The notes beneath the pieces are model-generated. The model was not told where the DNA came from. It searched no databases and saw nothing but the letters and a program-made list of their open reading frames with translations. Positions 5,965 through 58,238 of a stretch of 64,000 nucleotides of DNA are shown here, in pieces. Numbering within the stretch: position 1 is the first letter of the stretch; each line of letters starts with the position of its first letter. The DNA lies in contig CAYOVP010000001.1 of the NCBI GenBank assembly GCA_964407495.1, positions 11,829 to 75,828 on the forward strand, in the 5' to 3' direction. Position numbers and translations under genes: made by a program. This DNA comes from an uncultured Thermodesulfobacteriota bacterium (GTDB taxonomy: Bacteria; Desulfobacterota; GWC2-55-46; JADFVP01).

Positions 5965-6641
5965 TAAGAAAGATAGATGACGATGAGTTGGAGATGGTAA
6001 AGGAGGCGCTCGCGGCCAACCCCCTCTTCAGCGGGCTCGAGGAGTTTTACCTCGATGACCTCCTGGAAGTGGGAGAACTCAAGTACTGGCCCGGCGGGTC
6101 CCAGGTCATATGCGAGGGTGATATGGGAGAGGCCGTGTACTTCATAGTCTCGGGAAGGGCAAAGGTGACGCTGTACAGCGAACAGGGTCGCGAGATAGTG
6201 CTCTCTGTCCTTAAGAAGGGCGACATGTTCGGAGAGATGTCCATAATGGACGAGAAACCGCGCTCTGCGAACGTGGAGACCGTAAAGGAACTCAAGTGTC
6301 TCGTCGTAAGAAAGGATGCCTTTCTCAAGTACCTGGGCGTGCATCACCGCGTGTACCGAACCATGTTCGCCTATCTAACCACCAGGCTCCGAGAGGCCAC
6401 GCGAAAGATCGGAGGCCTTGCGCTCCTCGATGTCTGTGGCCGAATTGCCCATACGCTCATAGGAATGGCAAAGCCCTCGGAAGACGACCAGATAGTGACC
6501 ATAGAACGGCCAACACACGAGGAACTGGCGGCAATGATAGGGTCCTCGAGGGAGGTTGTGAGCAGGGCGCTGAAGAAGATGAGCAACGAGGGGTATATAA
6601 AGATAGAAAAGAAGCACATACTCCTCTTTCTGCACCAGTAA
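5961..6641 (+). CDS. Crp/Fnr-family transcriptional regulator (cNMP-binding domain plus C-terminal HTH)
   Basis: cNMP-binding beta-roll (GDMGEAVYFIVSGRAKV...GDMFGEMS) and C-terminal HTH (THEELAAMIGSSREVVSRALKKM). Confidence 0.88.
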   Translation: MIRKIDDDELEMVKEALAANPLFSGLEEFYLDDLLEVGELKYWPGGSQVICEGDMGEAVYFIVSGRAKVTLYSEQGREIVLSVLKKGDMFGEMSIMDEKPRSANVETVKELKCLVVRKDAFLKYLGVHHRVYRTMFAYLTTRLREATRKIGGLALLDVCGRIAHTLIGMAKPSEDDQIVTIERPTHEELAAMIGSSREVVSRALKKMSNEGYIKIEKKHILLFLHQ

Positions 6642-8132: not shown

Positions 8133-10886
8133 ATGTTTGGCGGAATACTGAAGAAGGTTTTTGGCAGCAAGAACGAACGCGACATCAAGCGCATGCGTCC
8201 ACTTGTGGACAAGATAAACGCCCTTGAACCAGAGATGGAGAAAGTGGCGGACAACGGCTTCATCGCCCTTACGGAGAAGTTCAAGGAACGGATAGCAGGC
8301 GGGGCCACACTGGACGAGATACTGCCAGAAGCCTTTGCCGCTGTCCGCGAGGCCTCGAAGCGGGAACTCAGGATGCGCCACTTCGACACCCAGATCCTCG
8401 GCGGCATAGTCCTCCACGAGGGCAAGATAGCAGAGATGAAGACCGGTGAAGGTAAGACCCTTGCCGCCACACTCGCACTCTATCTCAACGCGCTTACAGG
8501 CAAGGGCGCCCATCTTGTCACTGTGAACGACTACCTCTCGCGCCGTGACGCTGTCTGGATGGGGCCACTGTACCACAAACTCGGCCTCACCGTGGGAGTC
8601 ATACAGCACGAGGTGAGTTTCATCTATGACCCCACCTTTACGGATGAGACGGGCGGGCACTATCACCTCCGTCCCGTGGAGCGGCGGGAGGCCTATTACG
8701 CGGACATCACCTACGGGACAAACAACGAGTTTGGTTTCGATTACCTGCGCGACAATATGAAGTTCTCCATAGATGAGTATGTTCAGCGCGAACTCAACTT
8801 CGCCATTGTCGACGAGGTGGACTCCATCCTCATCGACGAGGCCCGTACCCCTCTTATAATATCCGGCGCCCTCGAAGACTCCACGCAGAAGTACTATGAC
8901 ATAGACCGTGTCATACCAAACCTCGAAAAAGACAGGCATTATACTGTGGACGAGAAGGCCCGCCAGGTGCTCCTTACAGACGAGGGCGTGGAAAAGGTGG
9001 AGTCACTGCTCGGGATAAAGAACCTATACGACATCACCAACATAGAGACCCTTCATCACGTGAACCAGGCCCTCAAGGCCCATGTCCTCTTCCAGCGCGA
9101 TGTGGACTACGTGGTAAAGGACGGCTCGGTGGTCATAGTGGACGAGTTCACGGGCAGGCTCATGGAGGGCCGCCGCTGGTCTGACGGCCTTCACCAGGCC
9201 GTGGAGGCCAAGGAAGGGGTGAAGATAGAGAGCGAGAACCAGACGCTGGCCACCATTACCTTCCAGAACTACTTCAGGATGTATGACAAACTCTCGGGCA
9301 TGACCGGTACAGCCGACACAGAGGCCGCGGAGTTCAACTCCATATACAACCTCGAGGTGGTGGTAATCCCCACGAACAAGCCCATGATACGCATCGACCA
9401 CCGCGACCTCGTGTACAAGACCAAGGAAGAGAAGTTCCGCGCAGTAATAAAGGAAATAAAGGAACTCATAGAAAAGGGCAGGCCCGTACTCGTGGGTACC
9501 ATCTCCATAGAGGACTCGGAAAAACTCTCACGCATGCTGAAGGCCCAGGGCATACGCCACGATGTCCTCAATGCCAAGCACCACGAGCGCGAGGCAGAGA
9601 TAATAGCCCAGGCAGGCCGCCTCGGTGCAGTGACCCTGTCCACCAACATGGCTGGCCGTGGAACCGATATCATGCTCGGCGGCAACCCAGAACACATGGC
9701 CATGGCAGTTGCCGGCAAGGACGAGACAACGCCAGAATACAAGGCCGCCTACGAAGAGGCCTTGAGGATCTGCAATGAGGAGAAGAAGAAGGTCATAGAA
9801 CTGGGCGGCCTTCATATCCTTGGCACCGAACGCCACGAGTCGAGGCGTATAGACAACCAGCTCCGTGGCCGCGCGGGCCGCCAGGGAGACCCTGGATCGT
9901 CGCGCTTCTATCTCTCCTTCGAGGACGATCTCCTTCGTATCTTCGGGAGCGACCGCATCGCCTCCATTATGAACAAGATAGGCCTTGAAGAAGACGTGCC
10001 CATAGAGCACGGCCTCGTCTCCAGGGCCATTGAGAATGCCCAGAAAAAGGTCGAGGCCCATAACTTCGACATAAGAAAACACCTCCTCGAGTATGATGAT
10101 GTCATGAACCAGCAGAGGGAGGTGGTCTATGGGTACAGGCGTCAGATACTCGCCAAGGAGGGCCTTCGCGAGATGGTCAAGGAGTTTGCCGGCGAGATGG
10201 CAGAAGACCTTGTAAACACCCATATCGAGGACAAGGCGCATCCTGATGAGTGGGACATAAAGACCCTGAACGAGGCCGTAATGGCCCAGTTCGGGATAGT
10301 CCTCGATGAGGCCGAGGCCAGGGGTGTGGATAATGCCGAGGCACTCGCAAAACTCATAGTGGACAGAGCCTGGCCCGCCTACGAAGCAAAGGTCGAACTT
10401 GCCGGAGAGGAGAACTTCTCCGAGTTCGAGCGCATTATCACCATTACCACCCTAGACAACCTTTGGAAGGACCATCTCCTGTCCATGGACCACCTGAAGG
10501 GCGGCATAGGGCTCCGCGGTTTTGGACAGAAGGACCCGCTCCAGGAGTACAAGAAAGAAGGCTATGATCTCTTTGTGAACATGATCTATAACTTCAAGTC
10601 AGAGATAGTTGAGCGCCTCTTCAGGGTGGAGATTACCATAGACGAGGGTGAGGAGACTGCCCCTGCGCCCCCGCCGCCGGTGGCAGAGCCCGTGGCCGTG
10701 ACCTACGGGCGAGGCGAGGCCCCTGGCGTGGGAGTTGCAACCGCCGAACCAATGACCGAGGCCGTGGCCGAATCTGCCGAGGAAAAGCCGAGGCCCGTGG
10801 TGCGAAGCACCGAGAAGATAGGCAGAAACGACCCCTGCACCTGTGGTAGTGGCAAGAAGTATAAGAAGTGCTGCGGCGCTGCCTGA
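8133..10886 (+). CDS. secA: Preprotein translocase ATPase SecA
   Basis: 917 aa; N-terminal [25 protein letters not shown]-like motor motifs, C-terminal Zn-finger [22 protein letters not shown] before the ATG. Confidence 0.97.
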
Positions 10887-10984
10887 GGGGCCGATGGTCT
10901 CAGGGGGCGGCTGCCAGAACTGATACCGCTGTTCCTGTCATGCCTTTTGCTGTGGCATCATCGGGGCCCGGTGCATGGGCTGAT

Positions 10985-11069
10985 ACTGGTTTTCTTTGCT
11001 CCGCTTTCTTTTTTCCAAAAGAAAGCGGAAGGTTTTCTCTGTCTTACTTTCTTTTTCAAAAAAAGTAAG
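10985..11069. repeat. Intergenic palindromic element, copy A (two tandem stem-loops; the 5' 44 nt are nearly identical to 54581-54627)
   Basis: Hairpin 1 at 11001-11028: 12-bp stem CCGCTTTCTTTT/AAAAGAAAGCGG, loop TTCC. Hairpin 2 at 11043-11069: CTTACTTT...AAAGTAAG. Sits after the secA stop and upstream of argJ. Confidence 0.7.
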
Positions 11070-11113
11070 GAAATCTTTTCACCTCATATCTTTTCATCTC
11101 AGGGGTTTTTCTA

Positions 11114-12325
11114 ATGACAACCGAGAAGGCCGCAGGGCCTCTTTGCAGGCTCCGCGTTCCTGGCTTTAGGGCCTCTGGTACGAGCGCGGGCATAAAGAAA
11201 AAGGGCAGACCCGACATGGCCCTCATAGTGAGCGATGTGCCTGCAACCGTTGCAGGGCTCTATACCACCAACGTGGTGAAGGCCGCGCCGGTGCTCCTCG
11301 ACATGGAGCGGACCGCCTCGGACCGCCAGGTGCGCGCCGTGGTCATAAACAGCGGCAATGCCAACGCCTGTACCGGTGAGCAGGGCATGAGAGACGCCGC
11401 TGAGATGGTGACGCTGACCGAGAAGGCCCTGGGGCTCAATGCTGGCGAGGCCCTCGTGGCCTCGACAGGCGTAATAGGTGTACCCCTTCCTATGGAGAGG
11501 ATAAGGGCGGGTATCCAAGACCTCGCTGGTACGCTCCACAAGAGGGGGTTCTGCGCAGTATCCGAGGCCATGCTCACTACTGACGCCTTTACCAAGACAG
11601 CCCTCGTTAGGAAAAAGATTGGCTCCAAGACCGTCACCCTTCTTGGTCTTGCCAAGGGCGCAGGCATGATAAATCCTGATATGGCCACCATGCTGGCCTT
11701 TTTCATGACCGATGCCGCCATATCGAGGTCACTGCTCAAGGCCGCGCTGAGGTCTGCCTGTGTGCCGAGTTTCAACAGCATCATGGTGGACAATGATACC
11801 TCCACCAATGACACGGCCCTTGCCATGGCAAACGGCTTTAGCGGCGTACGCATCAGGCGTGGTACGGACGAATACTCTTGTTTCGTGGCGCTCCTCACCG
11901 ACGTTGCCACGCGCCTTGCAAAGATGATTGTCCGCGATGGTGAGGGGGCAACGCGTTTTGTGGAGATACGCATCACCGGGGCCTCCTCCAGGCGTGAGGC
12001 CAGAAAGGCCGCCCGTGTCGTTGCAGGGTCTTTTCTCGTAAAGACAGCCCTCTTCGGCGCTGATCCCAACTGGGGGCGTGTGGCCGCGGCACTGGGACGG
12101 GCAGGGATAAGGCTTGATGAGTCCAGGCTGGAGATTGCCTTCAACGGTGTGACCGTGGCACGGGGCGGGCTCGATACAGGAGAGGAAAAACGTGCGGCCA
12201 GGGCCATGAAAAGGAAGAATATCGTACTCGGCATAGGCCTGAACATCGGTGGCGCCTCGGCTACGTTCTGGACAACAGACCTCTCTTATGATTATGTAAG
12301 GATAAATTCCGAGTACAGGACCTGA
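11114..12325 (+). CDS. argJ: Bifunctional glutamate N-acetyltransferase / amino-acid acetyltransferase ArgJ
   Basis: Autoproteolytic site context PDMATMLAFFMTDA (A|TML), conserved ArgJ alpha/beta subunit blocks throughout. Confidence 0.93.
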   Translation: MTTEKAAGPLCRLRVPGFRASGTSAGIKKKGRPDMALIVSDVPATVAGLYTTNVVKAAPVLLDMERTASDRQVRAVVINSGNANACTGEQGMRDAAEMVTLTEKALGLNAGEALVASTGVIGVPLPMERIRAGIQDLAGTLHKRGFCAVSEAMLTTDAFTKTALVRKKIGSKTVTLLGLAKGAGMINPDMATMLAFFMTDAAISRSLLKAALRSACVPSFNSIMVDNDTSTNDTALAMANGFSGVRIRRGTDEYSCFVALLTDVATRLAKMIVRDGEGATRFVEIRITGASSRREARKAARVVAGSFLVKTALFGADPNWGRVAAALGRAGIRLDESRLEIAFNGVTVARGGLDTGEEKRAARAMKRKNIVLGIGLNIGGASATFWTTDLSYDYVRINSEYRT

Positions 12326-44174: not shown

Positions 44175-44180
44175 CGGGGT

Positions 44181-44573
44181 ATGAAGATAGGCGAGTTCTC
44201 CAGACTGGCCGGCGTCTCTGTTGATACTGTGCGCTACTACGAAGGCAGGGGACTGCTGGAAAAACCGGCCCGCAGGGAGTCCGGTTACAGGGTGTACTCT
44301 GGCAAGGACCTCAGGCGTCTCAGGTTTATCATCCATGCCAAGGAACTGGGTTTCACCCTCCATGAGATAGGGCAACTTCTCTCCATACGCTCTGATGGGA
44401 GTGAGTGCGAGAGCGTCAAGGCCCTGGCAGAGCAGAAGGCGGAGGAAATGGAGGAGCGGATGAGAAAGATGGCCCGCATGAGGGACGTGCTCCTTGAACT
44501 TGCAGAAAAGTGCGGCGAGAGGGGAGGCCTTGACCCCTGTCCCATCCTGAAGGCCCTGGAGGAAGAAGGATGA
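44181..44573 (+). CDS. merR: Hg(II)-responsive transcriptional regulator MerR
   Basis: N-terminal HTH MKIGEFSRLAGVSVDTVRYYEGRGLL. Cys76/Cys111/Cys120 spaced 35 and 9 residues apart, the same spacing I recall for the Hg-coordinating Cys82/117/126 of Tn501 MerR, with C-x8-CP. Confidence 0.9.
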   Translation: MKIGEFSRLAGVSVDTVRYYEGRGLLEKPARRESGYRVYSGKDLRRLRFIIHAKELGFTLHEIGQLLSIRSDGSECESVKALAEQKAEEMEERMRKMARMRDVLLELAEKCGERGGLDPCPILKALEEEG

Positions 44574-44905
44574 ACGTGCCGGGCCCAAAGGGAGAGAAGA
44601 CGAGCCTCATTGGCGCGGTCATCGCAGGAGGGCTTGCCTCGGCCTGCTGCGTGGGGCCTCTTCTGGTGGTCCTCCTGGGCCTCGGCTCGGCAGGGGTTTT
44701 TGTGAAGATGGAACCACTGAGGCCCCTATTCGCCCTTATTACCCTTTCGCTAATCGGCATCGCGGGCTTCAGACACGTAAGGGGCAGAAGGGCGTGCGCC
44801 GCGGGCGGCTGCGCACCCCGTAGGCCTGTAATGCTCTTTATCCTCGGCGGACTCGCGCTCCTCCTGCTCCTTCTTCCCTCGGTCCTGCCCTATATTATCG
44901 AGTAA
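44570..44905 (+). CDS. merT: Mercuric transport protein MerT
   Basis: TM1 vicinal Cys pair in GGLASACCVGPLLVVLLGLG, ~111 aa with 3 TM helices, overlaps the merR stop. Confidence 0.88.
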   Translation: MNVPGPKGEKTSLIGAVIAGGLASACCVGPLLVVLLGLGSAGVFVKMEPLRPLFALITLSLIGIAGFRHVRGRRACAAGGCAPRRPVMLFILGGLALLLLLLPSVLPYIIE

Positions 44906-44917
44906 GGAGAACTTATC

Positions 44918-45214
44918 ATGGGAAAATTATTAATAGTCGTCATGCTCGCCGTCCTTGCGGCCATACCGGCAAGATACGCATCTTCAAAGGAGGCGACGGC
45001 TGTAATCCACGTATCCGGCATGACCTGCAACATGTGCCCCATAACCATACGCCGCCGCGTCCTCAAGATGGAGGGCGTACTGGAGGCACAAGTGGACCGA
45101 AAGGCCGGGAGAGCGAACGTGACGTATGACGACAGCCTGCTCTCTGCCGAGGCTATTGCCAGGGCCGTAACGGAACTTGGATATCCGGCGGAGTTGGAGG
45201 AAGAAAAGAAATGA
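44918..45214 (+). CDS. merP: Periplasmic mercury-binding protein MerP (HMA domain)
   Basis: Signal peptide plus GMTCNMCP metal-binding motif (GMTCxxC). Confidence 0.9.
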   Translation: MGKLLIVVMLAVLAAIPARYASSKEATAVIHVSGMTCNMCPITIRRRVLKMEGVLEAQVDRKAGRANVTYDDSLLSAEAIARAVTELGYPAELEEEKK

Positions 45215-45318
45215 AGAAGACAGAGAACAGGAAGGCGGGCTGGGCGGGGTTTATAATCTTTGCTGTAATACTCGTGGGCATCGTATATCTTATGACCAGG
45301 TGCGGCGGCACCTGTTAG
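45211..45318 (+). CDS. 35-aa single-TM peptide with C-terminal CxxxC (MKKTENRKAGWAGFIIFAVILVGIVYLMTRCGGTC), translationally coupled to merP
   Basis: ATG overlaps the merP stop (ATGA). GGAGG SD 10 nt upstream. Basic N-terminus, one hydrophobic helix, C-terminal CGGTC. Below the ORF-track size cutoff; coding status is an inference. Confidence 0.45.
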   Translation: MKKTENRKAGWAGFIIFAVILVGIVYLMTRCGGTC

Positions 45319-45322
45319 TGCC

Positions 45323-46991
<1,669 letters not shown>

Positions 46992-50966: not shown

Positions 50967-51371
50967 ATGACTGGTAATACACAAAAAGGCATGCTCGGAA
51001 GCCTTGAGCAGGAAATCATGGACACCTTCTGGGACCTCGGTGGCATGAGCGGCAAGGCCGTCCACGAGCATATAAACAGATCGCGCCCCACGGCCCTTAC
51101 AACAGTACTAACTGTAATGGAGAGGCTCAGGAAAAAGGGCCTCCTGAAGAAAGAAAAGAGGGGCGGCGTCTTTATCTTCGAGGCCACCCTCACAAGAGAG
51201 GAGTTTGCCCGCAGGGTCTCTGCCAGGATCTTCAAGGATATCTTCGATCTCTCCACGGGTTCGGCGGCGGCGTCTTTTGTGGACACCCTGGCCGAGGTAG
51301 ACCCAGAAGAACTGAAAAGGCTCGATGAGTTGATTCAGAAGAAAAAAAAGGAACTGGAGAAAAAGTCCTGA
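50967..51371 (+). CDS. BlaI/MecI/CopY-family (penicillinase repressor family) transcriptional repressor; cysteine-free
   Basis: Winged-helix N-domain pattern LGSLEQEIMDTFWDLGGMSGKAVHEHI...PTALTTVLTVMERLRKKGLLKKEKRGGVFIFEA typical of BlaI/CopY. No C-terminal CxC metal motif, no adjacent BlaR1/M56 gene. Confidence 0.75.
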   Translation: MTGNTQKGMLGSLEQEIMDTFWDLGGMSGKAVHEHINRSRPTALTTVLTVMERLRKKGLLKKEKRGGVFIFEATLTREEFARRVSARIFKDIFDLSTGSAAASFVDTLAEVDPEELKRLDELIQKKKKELEKKS

Positions 51372-51646: not shown

Positions 51647-51679
51647 CCCATCTTTTCTACTATTGGTAGAAAAGATGGG
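51647..51679 (+). promoter_or_regulatory. Perfect 14-bp-arm inverted repeat CCCATCTTTTCTAC-tattg-GTAGAAAAGATGGG upstream of cusC; the core TTCTAC-N5-GTAGAA is identical to the operator at 50936-50954
   Basis: Read directly; lies 22-54 nt upstream of the cusC ATG (51701) and downstream of a T8 tract. Confidence 0.65.
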
Positions 51680-51700: not shown

Positions 51701-53149
51701 ATGTTGAGCCTTGAGAAAAAAAGGATCGGTTGGGCCGTGGCCCCTGCTCCAAGGAGAGGGGGGCTCAGGGTTGGGACCATCTTTTCCGCGCTAATGCTCC
51801 TGGTCTTCCTGGTGCCCTTGGAGGCATCTGGCGCAGGCACTGCGATGGAGACTCCTTCTCGTGCCATGGTCACTTCACAACGCGAAGGGCTGGAGGTAGA
51901 CCGGGCCCCAAGGTCCGAGCCAGAGGACCCTCAGGCGCCCGAGAAGAAGGCAGGGCCGGCCAGGCGCAGTCTTGCCTATTTTATCGGCCTTGCAAGGGAG
52001 CGAAACCCCAGGCTCAGGGCCGCCTTTCGTCGCTGGAAGATGAGCGAGGAGAGGCCGGCCCAGGCAAGGGCCCTTGAGAACCCGGTTCTCAGGTACACCG
52101 AGCCCGCGCGCGAGATAGAGACACGCCTTGGCCCCGTGGACCGCGCCTTCTCGCTGAGCCAGAAACTGCCCTTTCCGGGCAAACTCGGCCTCAAGGGGGA
52201 CATAGCGTCCAAAGAAGCCGAAATAGCGCGCCTTGAGTATGAAAAACTCCTCCGTGACCTTACCGCAGAGGTCAAGAAGACCTACTATGAACTCTACTTC
52301 GTGGACAAGGCCATTGAACTTCAGAAAGAGAACGAGGCCGTTCTCGAGTACTTCGCTGAGATAAGCAGGCGCAACTATGGTCTCGATGTCTCGGAACTCG
52401 ACGAACTCGTCCGGGCCCAGAAGTCCTCGGCAGGCGCCACCTTCGCCCTGCTCAAGGCCAGGGACATGCGAAAGACCGTTACGGCGCGGCTCAATACCCT
52501 CCTTGACAGGCCGCCGGATACAGAAGTGGGCCCAATAGAAGAGCCAGACTTTCTGGACGTGGACCTCACGGTAGAAAAGATGTTTGACCTTGCAAGAAAG
52601 TACAACGAGAACATAAGGCTCGCTGGCCTTGGAGTGGAAAAGAGCGAACTGGAGAGGAAACTCGCGCGCTTCAGTTACCTTCCGGACTTCAGCGTTGGGG
52701 TGAATTACTCACAGATAGGCCAGCCTCCTTCCATGACGAGGAACGCAGGCGACGACGCCCTGTCTTTTACCCTCGGAGTGAGCATACCTATCTGGTTCAG
52801 AAAGAACAGGGCCTCTCTCGATGAGAAGAAGGAAGGGGCCCTTGCCTCGCGGTTCGAGAAGAGGGCCGAACTCCAGGAGATAAGCGGGCTTGTGAAAGAG
52901 GTTTACTACAACATGAGTACATCGAGAAGGATAGCCCTTCTTTACAAGAAACGCTTCATACCAGAGGCCAAGGACTCCATGGATTTTGCAGAGGCGAGGT
53001 ACAAGACAGGCAAGGAGTCGCTGGGAAGGCTCCTCGAGACCCAGTCCATGTGGATAGACTTCAGGCTCATCTATTACCGGTCATTTGCGGACTACCTGAA
53101 GGATATAGCCGAGCTCGAGAGGCTTACGGCCACGGAATTCACAAAGTGA
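51701..53149 (+). CDS. cusC: Outer-membrane efflux protein, TolC/CusC/CzcC family
   Basis: Signal sequence, two tandem OEP repeats with coiled-coil character. First gene of a three-gene RND efflux set. ATG 51701 after an AAAGAGGGGG SD (ORF track starts at 51584). Confidence 0.85.
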   Translation: MLSLEKKRIGWAVAPAPRRGGLRVGTIFSALMLLVFLVPLEASGAGTAMETPSRAMVTSQREGLEVDRAPRSEPEDPQAPEKKAGPARRSLAYFIGLARERNPRLRAAFRRWKMSEERPAQARALENPVLRYTEPAREIETRLGPVDRAFSLSQKLPFPGKLGLKGDIASKEAEIARLEYEKLLRDLTAEVKKTYYELYFVDKAIELQKENEAVLEYFAEISRRNYGLDVSELDELVRAQKSSAGATFALLKARDMRKTVTARLNTLLDRPPDTEVGPIEEPDFLDVDLTVEKMFDLARKYNENIRLAGLGVEKSELERKLARFSYLPDFSVGVNYSQIGQPPSMTRNAGDDALSFTLGVSIPIWFRKNRASLDEKKEGALASRFEKRAELQEISGLVKEVYYNMSTSRRIALLYKKRFIPEAKDSMDFAEARYKTGKESLGRLLETQSMWIDFRLIYYRSFADYLKDIAELERLTATEFTK

Positions 53150-53162
53150 GAGGTCTACATAA

Positions 53163-54554
53163 ATGAAAAAAGTCTTCTTGATATTACTGCTCCTCCTTCT
53201 GGGGGGCATAATGGGGGCAGGGGGGCTGTACATGACCTCCCGACACGGCAGGGAAGCGTCCGCACCGGCAGAGGGGGGGGCAGGGAAGAAGGGCAGGAAG
53301 ATACTGTACTACAAGGCCCCCATGGACCCGTCCTATATCTCCGAAAAGCCGGGGAAGTCGCCCATGGGCATGGACCTCATACCAGTATACGAGGGTGAGG
53401 AAGATACCATGGAGCCGGGTACGGTTAAAATAGACCCCGTGACCATACAGAACATGGGTGTGCGCACGGCCAAGGTGCGCCGCATGAGGTTAGAGAAGAC
53501 CATAAGGACCGTTGGCCGTATCACCTATGACGAGAAGAAGGTCTATCACATACACACCAAGATAGACGGCTGGGTGGAGAAACTCTATTTCGACTTTACG
53601 GGTCAGAAGGTGAATAGAGGTGATACGCTCCTCGAGTTCTACAGCCCCAAACTCATATCCGCCGAGGAAGAACTCCTCCTTGCCAGGAAGATGGCCGCGA
53701 GGATGAAAGAGGTGCGCAGGACCTCCCTCGTTGACCTCAGCAGGCGGAGGCTCGAACTCTGGGATGTGCCCGAGGACCAGATAAGGGAGATAGAGGAGAC
53801 TGGCAAGGCAAAGCGTACACTCCGTATCCTCTCGCCTGTAACAGGAATCATTGTGGATAAGCCCGTGGTCGAGGGCATGTACGTCCAGCCTGGAAGAAAC
53901 CTCTTCACCATAGCGGATATCTCCACGGTCTGGGCCTATGCCGATATCTACGAGTACGAACTCCCCTGGGTGAGGCTCGGCCAGGGCGTGGATATGACCC
54001 TTGCGTCCTACCCTGGGAAGGTCTTTCACGGCCATGTCTCGTTCATATACCCCTTTGTGGAGCCAAAGACAAGGACCATACGCGTCAGGGTGGAGTTCGA
54101 TAACCCGGATTTCAGACTCAAGCCCGATATGTACGCTGATATGACACTGAGGGCGGTAGTAAGCCGAAGGGCCGTGGCAGTACCCAAGGAGGCGGTCCTC
54201 CTCTCGGGTAAGCGGAGCGTCGTCATACTCTCGCGCGGCAACGGAAAGTTCAGACCCCAGGACGTGGTCCTCGGCGCAGAGACCGACGATTACTATGAGG
54301 TGCGCTCTGGCCTCAAACCCGGCGACACGGTGGTGACATCTGCGCAGTTCCTCATAGACTCGGAGAGTAGCCTCAAGGAGGCGGTCTCCAAGATGCTCGA
54401 GGCAAAGAAGATGAAGGGCTCGAAGAAGAAGGGCGGGGCCATGAAGGGTATGAAGATGCCCGGCATGAAGAAAGATATGCCCATGAAGGGCATGAAGATG
54501 GAAGGTATGAAGAAAGATATGCCCATGAAGATGCCCATGAAGGGTATGAAGTAG
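53163..54554 (+). CDS. cusB: RND efflux membrane-fusion protein (CusB/CzcB family) with Met-rich C-terminal repeat tail
   Basis: N-terminal TM, CusB-like N-terminal metal-site region (..KAPMDPSYISEKPGKSPMGMDL..), beta-barrel/lipoyl/alpha-hairpin MFP pattern. C-terminus GAMKGMKMPGMKKDMPMKGMKMEGMKKDMPMKMPMKGMK. Confidence 0.88.
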   Translation: MKKVFLILLLLLLGGIMGAGGLYMTSRHGREASAPAEGGAGKKGRKILYYKAPMDPSYISEKPGKSPMGMDLIPVYEGEEDTMEPGTVKIDPVTIQNMGVRTAKVRRMRLEKTIRTVGRITYDEKKVYHIHTKIDGWVEKLYFDFTGQKVNRGDTLLEFYSPKLISAEEELLLARKMAARMKEVRRTSLVDLSRRRLELWDVPEDQIREIEETGKAKRTLRILSPVTGIIVDKPVVEGMYVQPGRNLFTIADISTVWAYADIYEYELPWVRLGQGVDMTLASYPGKVFHGHVSFIYPFVEPKTRTIRVRVEFDNPDFRLKPDMYADMTLRAVVSRRAVAVPKEAVLLSGKRSVVILSRGNGKFRPQDVVLGAETDDYYEVRSGLKPGDTVVTSAQFLIDSESSLKEAVSKMLEAKKMKGSKKKGGAMKGMKMPGMKKDMPMKGMKMEGMKKDMPMKMPMKGMK

Positions 54555-54555
54555 C

Positions 54556-54672
54556 CCAGGCCGCGAAAAGCGCGGCCTGGAACTGGTTTTCTTTGCCCCG
54601 CTTTCTTTTTTCCAAAAGAAAGCGGGAAATAAAAGTTCTTTTCTTCAACTTTCTTTTTGAAAAAGAAAGTTG
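54556..54672. repeat. Structured cusB-cusA intergenic spacer: terminator-like hairpin, then palindromic element copy B (near-identical to 10985-11028), then a third 13-bp-stem hairpin
   Basis: 54556-54580 CCAGGCCGCG-aaaag-CGCGGCCTGG. 54581-54626 ACTGGTTTTCTTTGCCCCGCTTTCTTTTTTCCAAAAGAAAGCGGG. 54646-54672 CAACTTTCTTTTT-g-AAAAAGAAAGTTG. Confidence 0.7.
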
Positions 54673-54756
54673 CAAAGAAAACAATGCCAGCGGCCCAAGG
54701 GCCGGGGGGGCTATGGCACACTTACGAGGTATCAGGCCCTCGCAGGGAAGGTATAG

Positions 54757-57700
54757 ATGCTCAAGAAGATAATAGAATTCTCCGTAAACAACAGGTTTCT
54801 CGTAATTCTGGGAACCCTCTTCATCATAGCCTTTGGTGCCTACACCATGGGCCGTACGCCCCTCGATGCCATTCCAGATCTATCGGACGTGCAGGTCATC
54901 ATCTACACGCCCTATGAGGGACAGGCCCCGCAGGTGGTGGAAGAGCAGGTCACCTATCCCCTTACGACGGCCATGTTGTCTGTGCCCCATGCAAAGGTCG
55001 TTCGCGGGTACTCCTTCTTCGGCTTCTCCTTCGTATACGTTATCTTCGAGGACGGAACCGACATGTACTGGGCCAGGAGCAGGGTCCTTGAGTATCTCAA
55101 CTTCGTGGCGGGCCGTCTCCCAAAGGGCGTGAACCCCTCCCTCGGCCCAGACGCCACTGGAGTGGGCTGGGTCTTCGAGTATGCCCTCGTGGACAGAACG
55201 GGAAAGCACGACCTTGCAGAACTGAGGAGCCTCCAGGACTGGTACATGAGGTATGAACTCCAGACAGTGCCAGGGGTATCCGAGGTGGCGAGCATCGGAG
55301 GGTATGTAAAGCAGTATCAGGTGGAGGTAGACCCCAACAAACTCGCGGCCTTCGATATCCCCCTTGCCAAGGTGAAGCACGCCATCAAGAGGAGCAACAA
55401 CGATGTGGGCGGCAAACTCCTCGAGATGAGCGAGCGGGAGTTCATGGTGAGGGGCCTGGGTTATATAAAATCTGCCGAGGACATAAGGAACATAGCCATA
55501 GGTGTTGACAAGAACGGAACCCCCATAACCGTGCGTGACGTTGCCACCGTACACCTTGGGCCCGAACTCCGCCGCGGGGCCGCGGACCTCGACGGAGAGG
55601 GCGAGGTGGCCGGAGGCGTGGTCATAATGCGCTACGGCGGCAATGCCCTCGATGTCATCAAGAATGTCAAGAAGAAGATAGAGACGCTGAAGAAGGGCCT
55701 GCCCGGGGGCGTGGAGATAGTCCCTGTCTATGACCGCTCCGGCCTCATAGAGCGGGCCATAGAGACGCTTCGCGGCAAACTCGTGGAAGAGAGCATAGTC
55801 GTGGCTGTCATCTGCGTCCTCTTTCTCCTCCATGTGAGGAGCGCCCTTGTGGCCATCTTCACGTTGCCAGTTGGCATACTCATGGCCTTCATAATCATGT
55901 ACTACCAAGGCATCAACGCGAATATCATGAGCCTTGGCGGTATCGCCATCGCCATAGGCGCCATGATAGACGGCGCCATAGTCATGATAGAGAACGCCCA
56001 TAAGCATATAGAGGAAGCGCCACAAGGAAAGGACCACTGGCAGATAATCATGGACTCGGCAAAGGAGGTTGGGCCGGCCCTATTCTTCTCGCTTCTCATC
56101 ATCACCTTCTCCTTTGTGCCAGTCTTCACCCTCGAGGCACAGGAGGGCCGTCTCTTCAGCCCCCTTGCCTTTACAAAGACATACTCCATGGCCGCCTCGG
56201 CCATCCTTGCCGTAACCATTGTTCCCATACTCATGGGCTACTTTATCCGCGGCAAGATTCTGCCCGAGAAGAAGAACCCCATAAACAGGCTTCTTCTCTT
56301 CGTATACAGGCCTGTGGTGGGCTTTGTCCTGCGCTACAAGAAGACCTTCATACTCATCTCTCTTCTGGCCCTGGTCGCGACCTTGGTTCCGCTCAAGAAA
56401 CTCGGCGGGGAGTTCATGCCGCCACTCAACGAAGGCGATATCCTCTATATGCCTACAACTCTTCCGGGGATCTCCATCACCAAGGCAAAGGAACTCCTGC
56501 AGCAGACGGACAGGATACTGAAGACCTTTCCAGAGGTGAAGAGGGTATTTGGCAAGGTGGGACGAGCCGAGACAGCAACGGACCCTGCGCCCCTCTCCAT
56601 GATGGAGACGACCATAATGCTAAGGCCCCAGGAGGAGTGGCGACCTGGAATGACCATCTATAAACTCATGGACGAGATGAACAGGGCCATAAAGTTCCCT
56701 GGCGTGACCAACGCCTGGACCATGCCCATAAAGACGCGTGTCGACATGCTCAGCACGGGTATCAAGACACCAGTGGGCCTCAAGGTGGCGGGCGATGACC
56801 TCAAGACCCTCGAAGGCCTCGGCAAGGAGATAGAGGCCGTTCTGAGGGACGTGCCCGGCACCCTCTCCGTGTACTCGGAGCGCGTCGTGGGGGGCAACTA
56901 TCTGGACTTCGAGATCGACAGGAAGAAGGCCGCGCGATATGGTCTTACGGTGGGCGACGTGCAGGACGTGATACAGTCGGCCATAGGCGGAATGAACATT
57001 ACCACCACTGTGGAGGGCCTCGAACGTTACCCCGTGAATCTTCGCTATGGCCGGGAACTGAGGAGCGATATCCCGTCGCTGAGGCGTGTCCTAATCGCCA
57101 CACCCACTGGTGCCCATATACCCATAGCCCAGGTGGCCGAGATCCGCATAAGGAAAGGCCCGCCTGCAATAAAGAGCGAGAACGCGAGGCTCAATGCATG
57201 GATCTACGTGGACCTAAGGGGTGTGGACGTGGGTACATATGTGGCGAGGGCGCAGAAGATAGTCAACGATGCCGTGAAACTCCCGCCAGGCTATACCCTT
57301 ACCTGGAGCGGACAGTTCGAGTACATGCAGAGGGCCAAGGCACGGCTAAAGGTCGTGGTGCCTCTTACGCTTCTTATCATCTTCCTCCTCCTGTACCTCA
57401 ACTTCAAGAAGGTGGGCGAGAGCGTAATCGTCATGCTCTCGCTGCCCTTTGCCCTCGTGGGCGGCGTCTGGACTCTCTATATGCTCTCCTATAACATGAG
57501 CGTTGCCGTGGGCGTTGGGTTCATCGCCCTTGCCGGGGTCTCGGCGGAGATTGGTGTCATAATGATAATATACCTTAACATGGCCTGCAGGGAGAGGTTC
57601 CTGAAGGGAACTCTCAAGACGAGGGCAGACCTGGAGGAGGCCGTAAAGGAAGGGGCCTCGCGCCGTATCCGCCCGATCATGATGACAGTATTCGCCATTA

Positions 57701-57879
57701 TCGGCGGGCTACTTCCCATAATGTGGGGCTCTGGCACTGGCTCGGCAGTGATGAAGAGGATAGCGGCGCCCATGGTGGGCGGCATGATCTCGGCAACAAT
57801 CCTCACGCTTCTCGTCATACCTGCCATCTATACCCTCTGGAGAGAGAGGGAGTTCAGGAGAGAGGGAGGAGGGAAATGA
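54757..57879 (+). CDS. cusA: Heavy-metal-efflux RND transporter (CusA/CzcA family)
   Basis: 1040 aa, 12 TM with two large periplasmic loops, HME-RND signature region ..AIGAMIDGAIVMIENA.., conserved proton-relay TM4 region. Confidence 0.93.
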   Translation: MLKKIIEFSVNNRFLVILGTLFIIAFGAYTMGRTPLDAIPDLSDVQVIIYTPYEGQAPQVVEEQVTYPLTTAMLSVPHAKVVRGYSFFGFSFVYVIFEDGTDMYWARSRVLEYLNFVAGRLPKGVNPSLGPDATGVGWVFEYALVDRTGKHDLAELRSLQDWYMRYELQTVPGVSEVASIGGYVKQYQVEVDPNKLAAFDIPLAKVKHAIKRSNNDVGGKLLEMSEREFMVRGLGYIKSAEDIRNIAIGVDKNGTPITVRDVATVHLGPELRRGAADLDGEGEVAGGVVIMRYGGNALDVIKNVKKKIETLKKGLPGGVEIVPVYDRSGLIERAIETLRGKLVEESIVVAVICVLFLLHVRSALVAIFTLPVGILMAFIIMYYQGINANIMSLGGIAIAIGAMIDGAIVMIENAHKHIEEAPQGKDHWQIIMDSAKEVGPALFFSLLIITFSFVPVFTLEAQEGRLFSPLAFTKTYSMAASAILAVTIVPILMGYFIRGKILPEKKNPINRLLLFVYRPVVGFVLRYKKTFILISLLALVATLVPLKKLGGEFMPPLNEGDILYMPTTLPGISITKAKELLQQTDRILKTFPEVKRVFGKVGRAETATDPAPLSMMETTIMLRPQEEWRPGMTIYKLMDEMNRAIKFPGVTNAWTMPIKTRVDMLSTGIKTPVGLKVAGDDLKTLEGLGKEIEAVLRDVPGTLSVYSERVVGGNYLDFEIDRKKAARYGLTVGDVQDVIQSAIGGMNITTTVEGLERYPVNLRYGRELRSDIPSLRRVLIATPTGAHIPIAQVAEIRIRKGPPAIKSENARLNAWIYVDLRGVDVGTYVARAQKIVNDAVKLPPGYTLTWSGQFEYMQRAKARLKVVVPLTLLIIFLLLYLNFKKVGESVIVMLSLPFALVGGVWTLYMLSYNMSVAVGVGFIALAGVSAEIGVIMIIYLNMACRERFLKGTLKTRADLEEAVKEGASRRIRPIMMTVFAIIGGLLPIMWGSGTGSAVMKRIAAPMVGGMISATILTLLVIPAIYTLWREREFRREGGGK

Positions 57880-58238
57880 GAGAGATAAAGGCCTATATGA
57901 GGCGGGATAAGGCAGAGGAAGTGATAGACGCACTCATGGAAGGCGGGGTGGCCGGCTTTACACTCATAGATGTCTGTGGACTCGGTGCCGCCGCATCAGA
58001 GGAGAAGAAGTGGTCCATAGAGTACTGCAAGAAGTACTCCTCAGTAGTCAAAGTGGAGATTGTCTGTCATAATAAAGACGTGGAGCGCATTACAGGTATC
58101 ATAAAGGAGCACGCCTGGACAGGTCACAGTGGTGACGGCATGATCTTTGTCGCTCCCATAATAGAGGCCATAAGGATACGAACGGGCGAGCGAGGGTATG
58201 AGGCCATAGAGCCCTGTGCCAAGAAACCAGCATCCTGA
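57876..58238 (+). CDS. P-II (GlnB)-like family protein encoded within the metal-efflux operon
   Basis: MREIKAYMRRDKAEEVIDALMEGGVAGFTLIDVCG...GDGMIFVAPIIEAIRIRTGERG matches the PII fold signature (GDGKIFV..VIRIRTGE). ATG overlaps the cusA stop (ATGA). Confidence 0.75.
   Translation: MREIKAYMRRDKAEEVIDALMEGGVAGFTLIDVCGLGAAASEEKKWSIEYCKKYSSVVKVEIVCHNKDVERITGIIKEHAWTGHSGDGMIFVAPIIEAIRIRTGERGYEAIEPCAKKPAS

What the first reader, a model, noticed from the sequence alone, without database searches (positions are those of the whole stretch)
54555..54756. cusB and cusA separated by a 200-bp, three-hairpin spacer, including a terminator-like structure, inside what is normally a tightly coupled operon
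cusB ends at 54554 and cusA starts at 54757. In characterised cusCBA/czcCBA operons these genes are adjacent or overlapping. Here the gap holds three consecutive hairpins:
- a GC-rich hairpin (CCAGGCCGCG/CGCGGCCTGG) followed by a T-rich run, 1 nt after the stop;
- palindromic element copy B (54581-54626);
- a 13-bp perfect-stem hairpin (54646-54672).
This could decouple CusCB from CusA stoichiometry by partial termination (attenuation), or it could mark insertion of a small mobile palindromic element. The Met-rich 39-aa repeat tail on CusB (MKGMKMPGMKKDMPMKGMKMEGMKKDMPMKMPMKGMK) is also an unusual periplasmic Cu(I)/Ag(I)-binding extension.
Basis: partly seen in the sequence, partly recalled or inferred. 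Interest (0 to 1): 0.5.

Follow-up and report, generated by a model that had tools for sequence, protein, structure and literature searches.

The report
Triplex-forming repeat in cus operon spacer
The unusually long gap between two copper-efflux genes holds a small repeated DNA element, also found elsewhere in this and related genomes, whose three matching segments could fold into a triple helix; it belongs to a known but poorly understood class of bacterial repeats and is not a dedicated copper regulator.

Summary
cusB ends at 54554 and cusA starts at 54757. The 202-nt gap holds a GC hairpin (54556-54580) and two A/T-rich hairpins (54597-54626, 54646-54672).

The two A/T-rich hairpins are not cus-specific. 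They form an inverted pair of units of a dispersed intergenic repeat. A second copy lies downstream of secA (10984-11075). Related Thermodesulfobacteriota MAGs carry many copies. Orthologous cusB-cusA junctions lack the pair or hold different hairpins.

Each unit is TTTTCTTTG, a 3-6 nt connector, CTTTCTTTT, a loop, then AAAAGAAAG. The first block always lies 5' of the pyrimidine arm and is its mirror image. That means it copies the purine arm in parallel, T for A and C for G. The rule also holds in variants with other stem sequences. This is the arrangement needed for an intrastrand pyrimidine-motif triple helix.

G/C-rich repeats of this kind are already described in E. coli (BoxC/PIT/TM_ECO; Holder 2015), with no function assigned.

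Features I did not find in that paper: a loop-to-flank pseudoknot in some relatives, copies in viral contigs, and a bias towards gene 3' ends.

Any effect on the CusB:CusA ratio is untested. The Met-rich CusB tail is common in this clade.

The parts
53163..54554 (+). cusB (RND membrane-fusion protein, 463 aa) with a Met/Lys-rich C-terminal tail; its stop codon is the left border of the spacer
   Evidence: Pfam HlyD_D23 2.4e-83 and HMBD; translation; JGI gene call
54556..54580 (+). GC-rich hairpin (10 bp, 5-nt loop) 1 nt after the cusB stop; probably part of the older spacer rather than of the repeat
   Evidence: (-21.3 kcal/mol as RNA). Orthologues have other GC hairpins at this position. The following U-run is offset by 6 nt.
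54587..54595 (+). Unit 1, third-strand block TTTTCTTTG; mirror image of the pyrimidine arm, i.e. a parallel T-for-A, C-for-G copy of the purine arm
   Evidence: Mirror rule and 5' position shown across the family.
54596..54626 (+). Unit 1 connector plus hairpin: C (54596), CCCG (54597-54600), CTTTCTTTT (54601-54609), loop TTCC (54610-54613), AAAAGAAAG (54614-54622), CGGG (54623-54626)
   Evidence: 13-bp perfect stem; -18.0 kcal/mol as RNA and -13.8 as DNA; same sequence at 11000-11029
54646..54682 (-). Unit 2, inverted. On the - strand it reads GTTTTCTTTG (complement of 54673-54682), CAA, CTTTCTTTT, TCA, AAAAGAAAG, TTG. On the + strand it is a hairpin (54646-54672) followed by the purine tail CAAAGAAAAC.
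   Evidence: ('win - 9320')
54586..54682 (.). The whole 97-nt inverted pair of units. Its 11-nt ends GTTTTCTTTGC / GCAAAGAAAAC are complementary and close a two-hairpin structure.
   Evidence: Inverted repeat I4. MFE -39.0 kcal/mol as RNA. As DNA -31 and -33 kcal/mol on the two strands, z -6.8 and -7.2.
54683..54756 (+). Rest of the spacer: a small GC hairpin (GGCCCAAGGGCC region) and the cusA ribosome-binding site GGGAAGG (54745-54751)
   Evidence: The RBS-proximal bases resemble those of orthologues (GGAATATATAG, GGGAAGATATATAA).
54757..57879 (+). cusA (RND pump, 1040 aa); its start is fixed by the conserved N-terminus MLKKIIEFS
   Evidence: Pfam ACR_tran 2.3e-242; orthologue starts
10984..11029 (+). 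Copy A, unit 1, between secA (8133-10886) and argJ (11114-12325): ACTGG, TTTTCTTTG (10990-10998), C, then hairpin 11000-11029
11031..11075 (+). Copy A, second unit, direct and degenerate: GGTTTTCTCTG, TCTTA, CTTTCTTTTT, C, AAAAAAAGTAAG
   Evidence: -1.9 kcal/mol. A similar second hairpin occurs in related MAG locus L103.

Best explanation
The spacer is an older intercistronic gap of about 100 nt, consisting of a GC hairpin right after cusB plus the cusA ribosome-binding region. A 97-nt dispersed repeat (54586-54682) now sits inside it.

The repeat is an inverted pair of units of an A/T-rich 'intrastrand triplex motif'. Each unit carries three blocks on one strand:
- a 5' pyrimidine block, TTTTCTTTG;
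- a 3-6 nt connector, then the pyrimidine arm CTTTCTTTT;
- a loop, then the purine arm AAAAGAAAG.

The two arms form a Watson-Crick hairpin. The 5' block is positioned and sequenced so that it can lie in the hairpin's major groove, parallel to the purine arm, making T.A-T and C+.G-C triples. This is class IV of Hoyne/Maher and Holder et al. The complementary strand carries the purine-motif class II version.

The element is the A/T-rich counterpart of the E. coli BoxC/PIT/TM_ECO repeats. It is scattered through intergenic regions of the source lineage and differs between relatives at this junction. It is not a conserved cus regulator.

What is shown: the anatomy, the second copy, the family in relatives, non-conservation at the orthologous junction, the mirror rule, and the complementarity of the connector.

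What is inferred:
- A triple helix actually forms. On the cus mRNA, unit 1 is in the pyrimidine sense, which can form as RNA. There, however, the 11-bp outer stem competes for the same block.
- The extra -39 kcal/mol of structure acts like a REP element, as a barrier to 3'-to-5' decay or a weak pause site, which could favour cusCB over cusA.
- The element spreads or turns over by an unknown, probably single-strand-DNA-based, mechanism.
For: Anatomy.

Second copy in the window: 46 nt with 2 mismatches, at an unrelated locus (secA-argJ).

No Rfam family matches the window, the spacer or 18 related loci.

The same unit, with the same TTCC loop, occurs on at least 7 contigs of MAG CAZSAY01, 4 of CAYYJQ01 and 1 of CAYYUX01 (all Thermodesulfobacteriota), and between recF and gyrB in L051.

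Those same MAGs carry orthologous cus operons whose cusB-cusA gaps lack the pair: 63 nt in CAYYUX01, and 211 nt with a different, third-block-less hairpin in CAZSAY01. Other relatives have gaps of 65, 81 and 96 nt.

Mirror rule:
- With only the hairpin fixed, the mirror 8-mer lies within 20 nt 5' in 23 of 146 strand views. The direct repeat is found 0 times, and the mirror 8-mer on the 3' side once.
- By-catch variants with other stems keep the rule: arm CTTTTCTTTTT with block TTTTTCTTTTG; CTTTTTCTTTC with CTTTCTTTTTG; CTTTCCTTTTT with TTTTTCCTTTG; CTTTCTTC with CTTCTTTG.
- In a prospective scan with the swapped stem CTTTTCTTT/AAAGAAAAG, one search found 16 of 206 flanks with the predicted block TTTCTTTT (12 with the mirror only, 4 also containing the direct repeat, 1 with the direct repeat only). 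The re-tally gave 15 of 194 5' flanks and none on the 3' side.

Connector pairing with the 3' flank: mean run 2.15 against 0.84 +/- 0.08 when flanks are re-paired; 0 of 2000 permutations reach the observed value.

Prior art describes the class and its traits: intergenic, no link to gene function, frequent inverted pairs, elevated local variability. It also states that the pyrimidine motif can form in RNA and the purine motif cannot (PMC4666352).
Against: - No physical evidence of a triplex exists here. For the G/C-rich analogue, the triplex formed only in isolated single strands, not in duplex DNA or in vivo footprints (PMC4666352).
- The block ends in G where the rule predicts C.
- In copy B the third-strand block has a perfect 11-bp Watson-Crick partner (54672-54682), which the MFE fold prefers.
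- A third prospective stem (CTTCTTTTT/AAAAAGAAG) showed no enrichment. The family is therefore restricted in sequence, and part of the 'rule' could reflect common descent.
- No insertion boundaries, target duplication or transposase were found. No relative is close enough (best 80% CusB identity) to show an empty site.
Copy numbers and taxonomic spread are therefore samples.
- Gene orientation rests on my own crude ORF calls.
Confidence: 0.65

Rival explanations
1. A dedicated intercistronic attenuator. The GC hairpin plus U-run terminates part of the transcripts after cusB, or the hairpins stop 3' exonucleases. This sets a CusB:CusA ratio above 1, as the 6:3 stoichiometry of the CusB6-CusA3 complex would favour (established knowledge of E. 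coli CusCBA).
For: A terminator-like site was found by the scan at 54556-54580. All seven relatives whose sequence crosses the junction (the six orthologues, counting L211 read directly, plus L208, whose contig ends 33 nt after cusB) show some GC-rich or A/T hairpin shortly after the cusB stop. The gap is 63 nt or more in the six orthologues where it can be measured, against 31-45 nt in more distant homologues. REP elements do this in malE-malF (established knowledge).
Against: The sequences in the gap are unrelated between relatives. The U-run starts 6 nt after the stem and is interrupted by C and G. The same unit lies between secA-argJ, recF-gyrB and hisF-next gene. PIT/TM_ECO elements had no promoter or terminator activity (PMC4666352). 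The conserved regulatory site of this operon is elsewhere: an inverted repeat upstream of cusC.
Confidence: 0.2
2. An ordinary REP/REPIN- or MITE-type element moved by a transposase (a RAYT or IS200/IS605-like enzyme acting on single-stranded hairpins). On this reading the T-rich block is a protein recognition or guide sequence and the triplex potential is irrelevant.
For: The element is short, palindromic, extragenic and multi-copy, occurs in both orientations and as inverted pairs, and contigs break at it. The architecture of a hairpin plus a conserved 5' single-strand block resembles GTAG plus hairpin of REPs (own knowledge). Lineage-specific flanks extend the conserved core in each phylum.
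Against: A protein site gives no reason for mirror (rather than direct or inverted) symmetry that tracks stem changes. There is no GTAG and no target-site duplication (AACTG|...|AATGC). Copy A has no terminal inverted repeat. No transposase was looked for or seen in the window.
Confidence: 0.2
3. A DNA-level structure: an intrastrand triplex, H-DNA or cruciform that forms transiently on single-stranded or supercoiled DNA during replication or transcription. It stalls polymerases and makes the locus unstable. On this reading the cus spacer is simply a tolerated site, and the element has no RNA function.
For: This is what is reported for the G/C-rich analogue: DNA polymerase block in vitro and raised local variability between strains (PMC4666352). 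The content of this junction varies between relatives. In most loci the mRNA-like strand of the adjacent gene carries the purine (class II) version, which cannot form as RNA but can as DNA. Both strands fold well with DNA parameters.
Against: The loop-to-flank pseudoknot pairing and the G-T (never A-C) pairs on the pyrimidine-block strand point to a folded single strand of defined polarity, which could equally be RNA. No replication-strand information is available.
Confidence: 0.3
4. Chance: low-complexity T/A-rich hairpins that merely look alike.
For: A/T-rich triplex-like patterns are frequent in shuffled genomes when stems are short (PMC4666352). About 85 hits of the genome scan were antisense Lys/Ala-rich coding repeats.
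Against: The 22-nt hairpin core occurs 3 times in the window against 0.00 expected. Copies A and B are 46/46 alignable with 2 mismatches. An exact 10-mer block sits next to the hairpin in 20 of 89 matches from the metagenome scan plus the two window copies, where it was not part of the query. Permutation tests give 0/5000 and 0/2000.
Confidence: 0.01

Closest known systems
BoxC / PIT elements / TM_ECO intrastrand triplex motifs of E. coli and other Proteobacteria (Hoyne et al. 2000; Holder et al. 2015, PMC4666352)
   Same: Three 9-nt blocks on one strand separated by short loops: pyrimidine arm, purine arm, and a third block matching the purine arm by triplex rules. The complementary strand carries the other motif class. 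The elements are intergenic, multi-copy and in either orientation, and are often paired as inverted repeats (5 pairs among the 23 motifs in E. coli K-12; copy B here). Loops are less conserved than stems. There is no link to the function of neighbouring genes. The loci vary between relatives.
   Different: This family is A/T-rich (T.A-T with one C+.G-C) rather than G/C-rich. The connector is often base-paired with the 3' flank as an outer stem. Some relatives add a pseudoknot between the loop and the bases 5' of the third block. Copies occur in viral contigs, whereas TM_ECO was reported not to be associated with phages or plasmids. In my sample the hairpin side tends to abut gene 3' ends, whereas TM_ECO showed no such trend.
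REP/BIME elements and REPINs (e.g. the malE-malF REP of E. coli)
   Same: Short extragenic palindromes inside operons or after genes, present in many copies and often as inverted pairs. They add stable mRNA structure that can protect upstream mRNA from 3' exonucleases.
   Different: There is no GTAG head. The sequence is unrelated. A mirror-symmetric third block is present. No RAYT has been identified.
H-DNA at homopurine-homopyrimidine mirror repeats
   Same: A mirror repeat of a pyrimidine tract (TTTTCTTT ... TTTCTTTT) that obeys parallel Hoogsteen rules.
   Different: H-DNA needs only the mirror repeat in duplex DNA. Here an inverted repeat on the same strand supplies the Watson-Crick partner, so the whole triplex can form within one strand.
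Triple-helix H-type pseudoknots and ENE-type RNA triple helices (telomerase RNA, SAM-II and preQ1-II riboswitches, MALAT1/PAN)
   Same: A U-rich strand running parallel to the A-rich strand of a U-A helix. One C+.G-C interrupts the U.A-U triples, as in MALAT1. In some relatives the U-rich block is loop 1 of an H-type pseudoknot.
   Different: There is no Rfam match and no ligand- or gene-specific context. The window's own copies have 3-4-nt loops and no pseudoknot. No 3' A-tail capture is involved.

Membership tests
Intrastrand triplex motif (PIT/BoxC/TM; classes I-IV of Hoyne/Maher, Holder) | Three consecutive blocks of 6-15 nt on one strand, separated by loops of 1-6 nt | tested here: met
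   Blocks of 9 nt at 54587-54595, 54601-54609 and 54614-54622, with spacers of 5 and 4 nt. Criteria taken from PMC4666352.
Intrastrand triplex motif (PIT/BoxC/TM; classes I-IV of Hoyne/Maher, Holder) | The third block matches the purine block by triplex rules: parallel T.A-T / C.G-C for class IV, antiparallel A.A-T / G.G-C on the complement for class II | tested here: met
   TTTTCTTTG against AAAAGAAAG gives 8 of 9 triads; the last is G instead of C. The same holds for unit 2 and copy A. The rule holds in variant stems and in a prospective scan.
Intrastrand triplex motif (PIT/BoxC/TM; classes I-IV of Hoyne/Maher, Holder) | Intergenic, repeated, no functional link to flanking genes, inverted pairs common | tested here: met
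   Found between cusB-cusA, secA-argJ, recF-gyrB and hisF-next gene, and next to housekeeping genes in other phyla. Copy B is an inverted pair.
Intrastrand triplex motif (PIT/BoxC/TM; classes I-IV of Hoyne/Maher, Holder) | The triplex actually forms (CD, NMR, melting) | not testable with these tools
   ViennaRNA does not model triples. An experiment is needed.
REP / REPIN-RAYT | Short imperfect extragenic palindrome in many copies | tested here: met
REP / REPIN-RAYT | Conserved GTAG head 5' of the hairpin, and a cognate RAYT gene | tested here: not met
   The head is TTTTCTTTG; there is no GTAG. A RAYT gene was not searched for, as no complete genome was available.
MITE | Terminal inverted repeats and a target-site duplication | tested here: not met
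   Copy B has 11-nt complementary ends, but these are the third blocks of two inverted units. Its flanks are AACTG / AATGC, so there is no duplication. Copy A has no terminal inverted repeat.
Intrinsic (Rho-independent) terminator | GC-rich stem-loop immediately followed by a U-tract | tested here: inconclusive
   The stem is met: 10 bp with 9 GC pairs. The U-tract begins 6 nt after the stem and reads UUUUCUUUG. It passes a lax scan only.
Triple-helix H-type pseudoknot RNAs (telomerase, SAM-II, preQ1-II type) | A second helix between the hairpin loop and the flank, making the U-rich block loop 1 | tested here: not met
   The window copies have 4-nt (TTCC) and 3-nt loops. At most TGG/CCA could pair, at the cost of stem pairs. 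The feature is met in relatives with loops of 6 nt or more: mean helix 4.14 against 3.24 +/- 0.20, 0/5000 permutations, with compensatory changes in the Ignavibacteria family.
Any Rfam family | Covariance-model score at or above the gathering threshold | tested here: not met
   0 hits in the window. The spacer gave only generic hairpin matches of at most 31 bits against thresholds of 34 or more (well below the threshold in each case). 0 relevant hits in 18 related loci.
Sigma-54 promoter (considered because of TGG-N-TGC in CTGGTTTTCTTTGC) | GG and GC elements with fixed spacing (TGGCAC-N5-TTGC) | tested here: not met
   Read directly from the sequence: the G of GG to the G of GC is 10 nt, not 12. 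Other families lack the TGG.
CusCBA-type heavy-metal RND efflux operon | OEP, membrane-fusion protein and RND pump genes in a row | tested here: met
   Pfam OEP, HlyD_D23 + HMBD, and ACR_tran. The same order, with a BlaI/CopY-like repressor gene upstream and (wherever the sequence extends past cusA) a P-II-like gene downstream, is seen in the orthologues.

The most novel reading that the evidence does not exclude
The A/T-rich triplex hairpin may be a structure under selection, not a by-product of low-complexity sequence. Three observations point that way:
- Its third block tracks changes in the stem by Hoogsteen rules.
- Some lineages lock it with a covarying loop-to-flank pseudoknot.
- The same design recurs in Thermodesulfobacteriota, Ignavibacteria/Bacteroidota, gut Clostridia, Lentisphaerae, high-GC bacteria, phage-like contigs and one giant-virus bin, usually with its hairpin side a few bases from a stop codon.

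If so, it would be a general end-of-gene device: a roadblock for polymerases or exonucleases that works as single-stranded DNA or as a pyrimidine-motif RNA triple helix. It would also be the first comparative evidence that intrastrand triplexes are functional in microbes.
Probability: 0.25. Interest if true: 0.75.

Novelty: new variant of a known kind. Interest (0 to 1): 0.5.

Why it matters
For the cus operon the result is deflating. The long spacer is a tolerated repeat, not a copper-specific control element. The conserved control site appears to be an inverted repeat upstream of cusC.

For nucleic-acid structure biology the repeat matters more. Intrastrand triplex motifs were catalogued in bacteria in 2000 and 2015, but no function was found, and A/T-rich ones were largely set aside as possibly chance.

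Here one A/T-rich family shows mirror-symmetric co-variation between third strand and stem, a fixed 5' position, and a paired connector of constant length. In some lineages it also has a pseudoknot. That pattern is expected if the triple helix itself is maintained.

This gives concrete, short oligonucleotides (42 nt) and natural variants for a direct test. It also gives a natural operon context (cusB-cusA) in which an effect on mRNA ends can be measured.

Tried and rejected
- **Known RNA family:** an Rfam gathering scan of the window, an E-value scan of the spacer and a gathering scan of 18 related loci gave nothing relevant.
- **Literature search by sequence strings:** only primers and unrelated hits.
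- **Sigma-54 promoter in CTGGTTTTCTTTGC:** the spacing is wrong.
- **Riboswitch or operator for the downstream gene:** downstream genes are unrelated (gyrB, argJ, cusA, kinase, etc.).
- **A single-copy orthologous RNA in Ignavibacteria:** rejected, because the flanking genes differ between species.
- **Direct-repeat protein site or alternative Watson-Crick pairing of the T-block with the purine arm:** the mirror beats the direct repeat in every variant.
- **MITE:** no target duplication.
- **Pseudoknot in the window's own copies:** the loops are too short.
- **Third prospective stem (CTTCTTTTT/AAAAAGAAG):** no third block found, so the rule does not extend to arbitrary stems.
- **More copies on the source contig:** none in the extra 8.4 kb fetched.
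- **Strand assignment:** G-U against A-C counts favour the pyrimidine-block strand (about 9:0, partly biased by the search patterns). Gene orientation, however, says most mRNAs carry the other strand. This is left unresolved.
- **Not done:** I did not build a covariance model. The permutation tests in Python replaced it.
Full report
**What is there.** The window comes from a 114.5-kb JGI metagenome contig (3300023507, Ga0257019_1000020). Genes around the finding form a metal-resistance block:
- a BlaI/CopY-like repressor (50967-51371);
- an outer-membrane factor (51701-53149 by the JGI call);
- the membrane-fusion protein cusB (53163-54554);
- the RND pump cusA (54757-57879);
- a P-II-like gene overlapping the cusA stop, two small genes, and a CopA-type ATPase;
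- a mer operon further upstream.

It folds much better than shuffles, z = -6.2. An identical 12.7-kb stretch was assembled from a second metagenome, so the spacer is real.

**The two A/T hairpins are a repeat, not a cus feature.** The hairpin core CTTTCTTTT-N-AAAAGAAAG occurs three times in the window against 0.00 expected. The third occurrence lies downstream of secA and upstream of argJ. There, 46 nt (10984-11029) match 54581-54626 with two mismatches.

In copy B, the bases GTTTTCTTTGC (54586-54596) are complementary to GCAAAGAAAAC (54672-54682). The two hairpins therefore sit inside an 11-bp outer stem. Read on the minus strand, the second hairpin has the same anatomy as the first, so copy B is an inverted pair of units. 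Copy A is a unit followed by a decayed direct unit.

**Relatives.** CusB homologues at 72-80% identity come from uncultured Thermodesulfobacteriota. Their cus operons have the same gene order, but the cusB-cusA gaps are 81, 96, 63, 65 and 211 nt, with unrelated content.
- One (L206) has a degenerate A/T hairpin.
- One (L210, MAG CAZSAY01) has TTACTTTCTTTTGAAAAAAGAAAGT followed by a T-run, with no third block.
- The others have only GC hairpins.
- L211 (65% CusB identity) has no cusA gene call; reading its sequence directly gives a gap of about 94 nt with a GC hairpin.
- Two distant homologues have gaps of 45 and 31 nt.

The very MAGs whose cus junction lacks the pair carry the unit elsewhere. 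It has the same TTCC loop and a conserved CTATTGG head. It is on at least 7 contigs of CAZSAY01, 4 of CAYYJQ01 and 1 of CAYYUX01, and several of those contigs begin exactly at the element. A metagenome contig has it between recF and gyrB. This is the behaviour of a dispersed intergenic repeat.

**The anatomy of the unit.** I scanned public collections first with the hairpin alone, then with the T-block plus the first arm. The same three-block design turned up repeatedly, in contigs of 25-70% GC:

TTTTCTTTG, 3-6 nt, CTTTCTTTT, loop of 2-12 nt, AAAAGAAAG.

Lineage-specific repeat families carry it in Ignavibacteria/Bacteroidota, gut Clostridia, Oscillospiraceae, Lentisphaerae and high-GC bacteria. 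A scan of viral contigs found it in phage-like contigs and, in at least 15 copies, in one bin labelled as a giant virus. About 85 hits of the genome scan were irrelevant: they were the antisense of Lys/Ala-rich coding repeats.

**Mirror rule.** The T-block is the mirror image of the pyrimidine arm. Equivalently, it copies the purine arm in the same 5'-to-3' direction with T for A and C for G.
- When only the hairpin was specified, the mirror 8-mer lay within 20 nt on the 5' side in 23 of 146 strand views. The direct repeat was found in 0, and either on the 3' side in 1.
- Variants caught by chance in the fetched loci keep the rule while changing sequence: arm C-T4-C-T5 with block T5-C-T4-G; arm C-T5-C-T3-C with block C-T3-C-T5-G; arm C-T3-CC-T5 with block T5-CC-T3-G; arm C-T3-C-T2-C with block C-T2-C-T3-G.
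- In a prospective scan for the swapped hairpin CTTTTCTTT/AAAGAAAAG, one search found 16 of 206 flanks with the predicted block TTTCTTTT, usually followed by G and a 3-4-nt connector: 12 with the mirror only, 4 also containing the direct repeat, and 1 with the direct repeat only. The re-tally gave 15 of 194 5' flanks and none on the 3' side.
- A third stem (CTTCTTTTT/AAAAAGAAG) gave nothing. The family is therefore restricted in sequence, and common descent explains part of the pattern.

Mirror symmetry has no meaning for a protein site or for Watson-Crick pairing. It is what a parallel Hoogsteen third strand requires.

**Other structure.**
- The connector is complementary to the bases after the purine arm far more often than when flanks are re-paired: mean run 2.15 against 0.84, 0/2000 permutations.
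- Otherwise the connector is an unpaired CA or CCAA. In both cases 3-6 nt separate the block from the stem.
- In copies with loops of 6 nt or more, the loop pairs with the bases just 5' of the block: mean 4.14 against 3.24 +/- 0.20, 0/5000 permutations.
- That helix abuts the block, and it shows compensatory changes within the Ignavibacteria family: GAGAC/GTCTT, CGAT/ATCG, GCGAC/GTCGT.
- This makes an H-type pseudoknot in which the block is loop 1, the loop that runs in the major groove of the second stem.
- The window's own copies have loops of only 3-4 nt and lack this feature.

**It is a known kind.** Holder et al. 2015 (PMC4666352), building on Hoyne and Maher 2000, describe 'intrastrand triplex motifs' in prokaryotes. 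These are three blocks on one strand, in four classes. The pattern of the E. coli BoxC/PIT/TM_ECO repeat is CCCTCNCCC-N3-6-GGGNGAGGG-N3-GGGNGAGGG, which is class II. Their findings for it:
- It is always intergenic and shows no link to gene function.
- It is often present as inverted pairs.
- It has no promoter or terminator activity.
- It blocks DNA polymerase in vitro.
- It forms a triplex as an isolated strand, but none was detected in duplex DNA or in vivo.
- It is associated with raised local variability.

They also state that pyrimidine-motif intrastrand triplexes can form in RNA and purine-motif ones cannot. My element is the A/T-rich counterpart: class IV on the strand with the T-block, class II on the complement. 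They catalogued A/T-rich motifs only in bulk and regarded many as possibly chance.

**Orientation.** With my own rough ORF calls, the hairpin side of the motif often lies 2-50 nt from the stop codon of a gene on the opposite strand:
- 54 against 28 in genomes and metagenomes;
- 26 of 32 in viral contigs;
- 3-5 nt in several copies of the giant-virus bin.

Two copies abut tRNA genes in the same sense. A third (L084) looks the same by eye, but ARAGORN called no tRNA there. So most mRNAs would carry the purine version, which should not form an RNA triplex. Against this, non-Watson-Crick pairs inside the helices are G-T on the T-block strand and never A-C, about 9:0, partly biased by the patterns used. 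I cannot reconcile these two observations. A DNA-level role, or no role, remains open.

In the window both copies have the T-block strand as mRNA. Unit 1 of the cus spacer could therefore in principle form an RNA triple helix, unless the 11-bp outer stem wins.

**What it does in the cus operon.** Nothing is shown. The pair adds about -39 kcal/mol of structure between two genes whose products are needed 2:1, so a REP-like effect on mRNA decay or a weak pause is plausible. However, the lack of conservation at this junction argues against a dedicated attenuator, as does the presence of the unit in housekeeping operons. The negative results for PIT elements point the same way.

The conserved candidate control site of the operon is a TTCTAC-N5-GTAGAA inverted repeat preceded by a T-run, upstream of cusC. 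It is present in all eight loci compared.

**The Met-rich tail.** All close orthologues end in Met/Lys- or Met/Asp/His-rich repeats. 48 of the 120 best homologues have at least 8 Met in the last 40 residues. It is a clade trait.

**Limits.**
- The source genome is incomplete.
- No relative is close enough to show an empty site.
- Triple helices cannot be computed with the tools at hand.

Noticed in passing
window 51647-51679 (between the BlaI/CopY-like repressor gene 50967-51371 and cusC): A perfect 14-bp inverted repeat, CCCATCTTTTCTAC tattg GTAGAAAAGATGGG, preceded by a T8 run. All seven orthologous loci have (A/T)TTCTAC-N5-GTAGAA(T) after a T-run at the same place. This is a likely operator of the repressor, and the truly conserved control site of the operon.
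   Followed up: partly
window 54420-54551 (CusB C-terminus) and P0001-P0120: Met-rich C-terminal tails (MKGMKM... or MDHxGME...) are common in this CusB clade. 48 of the 120 closest homologues have at least 8 Met in the last 40 residues, and tail length varies (423-656 aa proteins).
   Followed up: yes
L090, L092, L113, L160, L184, L190 (Ignavibacteria/Bacteroidota); L214, L217, L225, L233, L238, L242, L326, L350 (viral contigs): In copies with 7-10-nt loops, the loop is complementary to the 4-8 bases just 5' of the T-block, with compensatory changes. This is an H-type pseudoknot, which I did not find described in the one paper on intrastrand triplex motifs that I read.
   Followed up: partly
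L212, L213, L216, L220, L221, L234, L235, L237, L240 (IMGVR GVMAG-M-3300023184-110, GC 24-30%): At least 15 copies of TTTTCTTTG[TC]CTCCTTTCTTTT-N3-AAAAGAAAGAG in a bin labelled giant virus. Several have the hairpin 3-5 nt from a stop codon on the other strand, and two lie inside a long ORF. The classification of the bin was not checked.
   Followed up: partly
L025 1329-1352; L232 5117-5153; L084 69-92: Copies directly abut tRNA genes: 3 nt after tRNA-Ile in L025, and filling the spacer between two tRNA-Ser genes in L232. In both, the purine-tail version is in the tRNA transcript sense. ARAGORN did not call the L084 tRNA (the contig is cut).
   Followed up: partly
L091, L133, L135 (contig starts); L208 (contig ends 33 nt after cusB): Contigs of related MAGs begin or end exactly at the repeat or at the cusB-cusA junction, as expected if the repeat breaks short-read assemblies. 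Copy numbers in MAGs are therefore underestimates.
   Followed up: no
L183 about 5848-6254: Four tandem 123-bp repeats, each containing the T-block and first arm. Only the last has the purine arm.
   Followed up: no
L206 5423-5460; L210 5468-5505: At the same cusB-cusA junction, two relatives carry A/T hairpins of the same sequence type but without a third block: CCTTACGTTCTTTTGGAAAAGAGAAGG, and TTACTTTCTTTTGAAAAAAGAAAGT followed by T6. These may be remnants or independent arrivals.
   Followed up: partly
window 57876-58238 and orthologues: A 120-aa P-II/DUF3240-like gene overlaps the cusA stop by 4 nt. It is present in every orthologous locus fetched whose sequence extends past cusA, and in one distant homologue (L481) but not the other (L482). 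It is followed by a TRASH-like gene, a DUF2231 gene and a CopA-type ATPase.
   Followed up: no
window 54657-54685: A weak sigma-70-like match (TTGAAA-17-AACAAT, 9/12) lies inside unit 2, about 70 nt upstream of cusA. This is a consensus hit only.
   Followed up: no
window about 44180-46990 (L001 1019-3829): A merR-merT-merP-merF-merA operon lies a few kb upstream of the cus block, so the region is a multi-metal resistance island.
   Followed up: no
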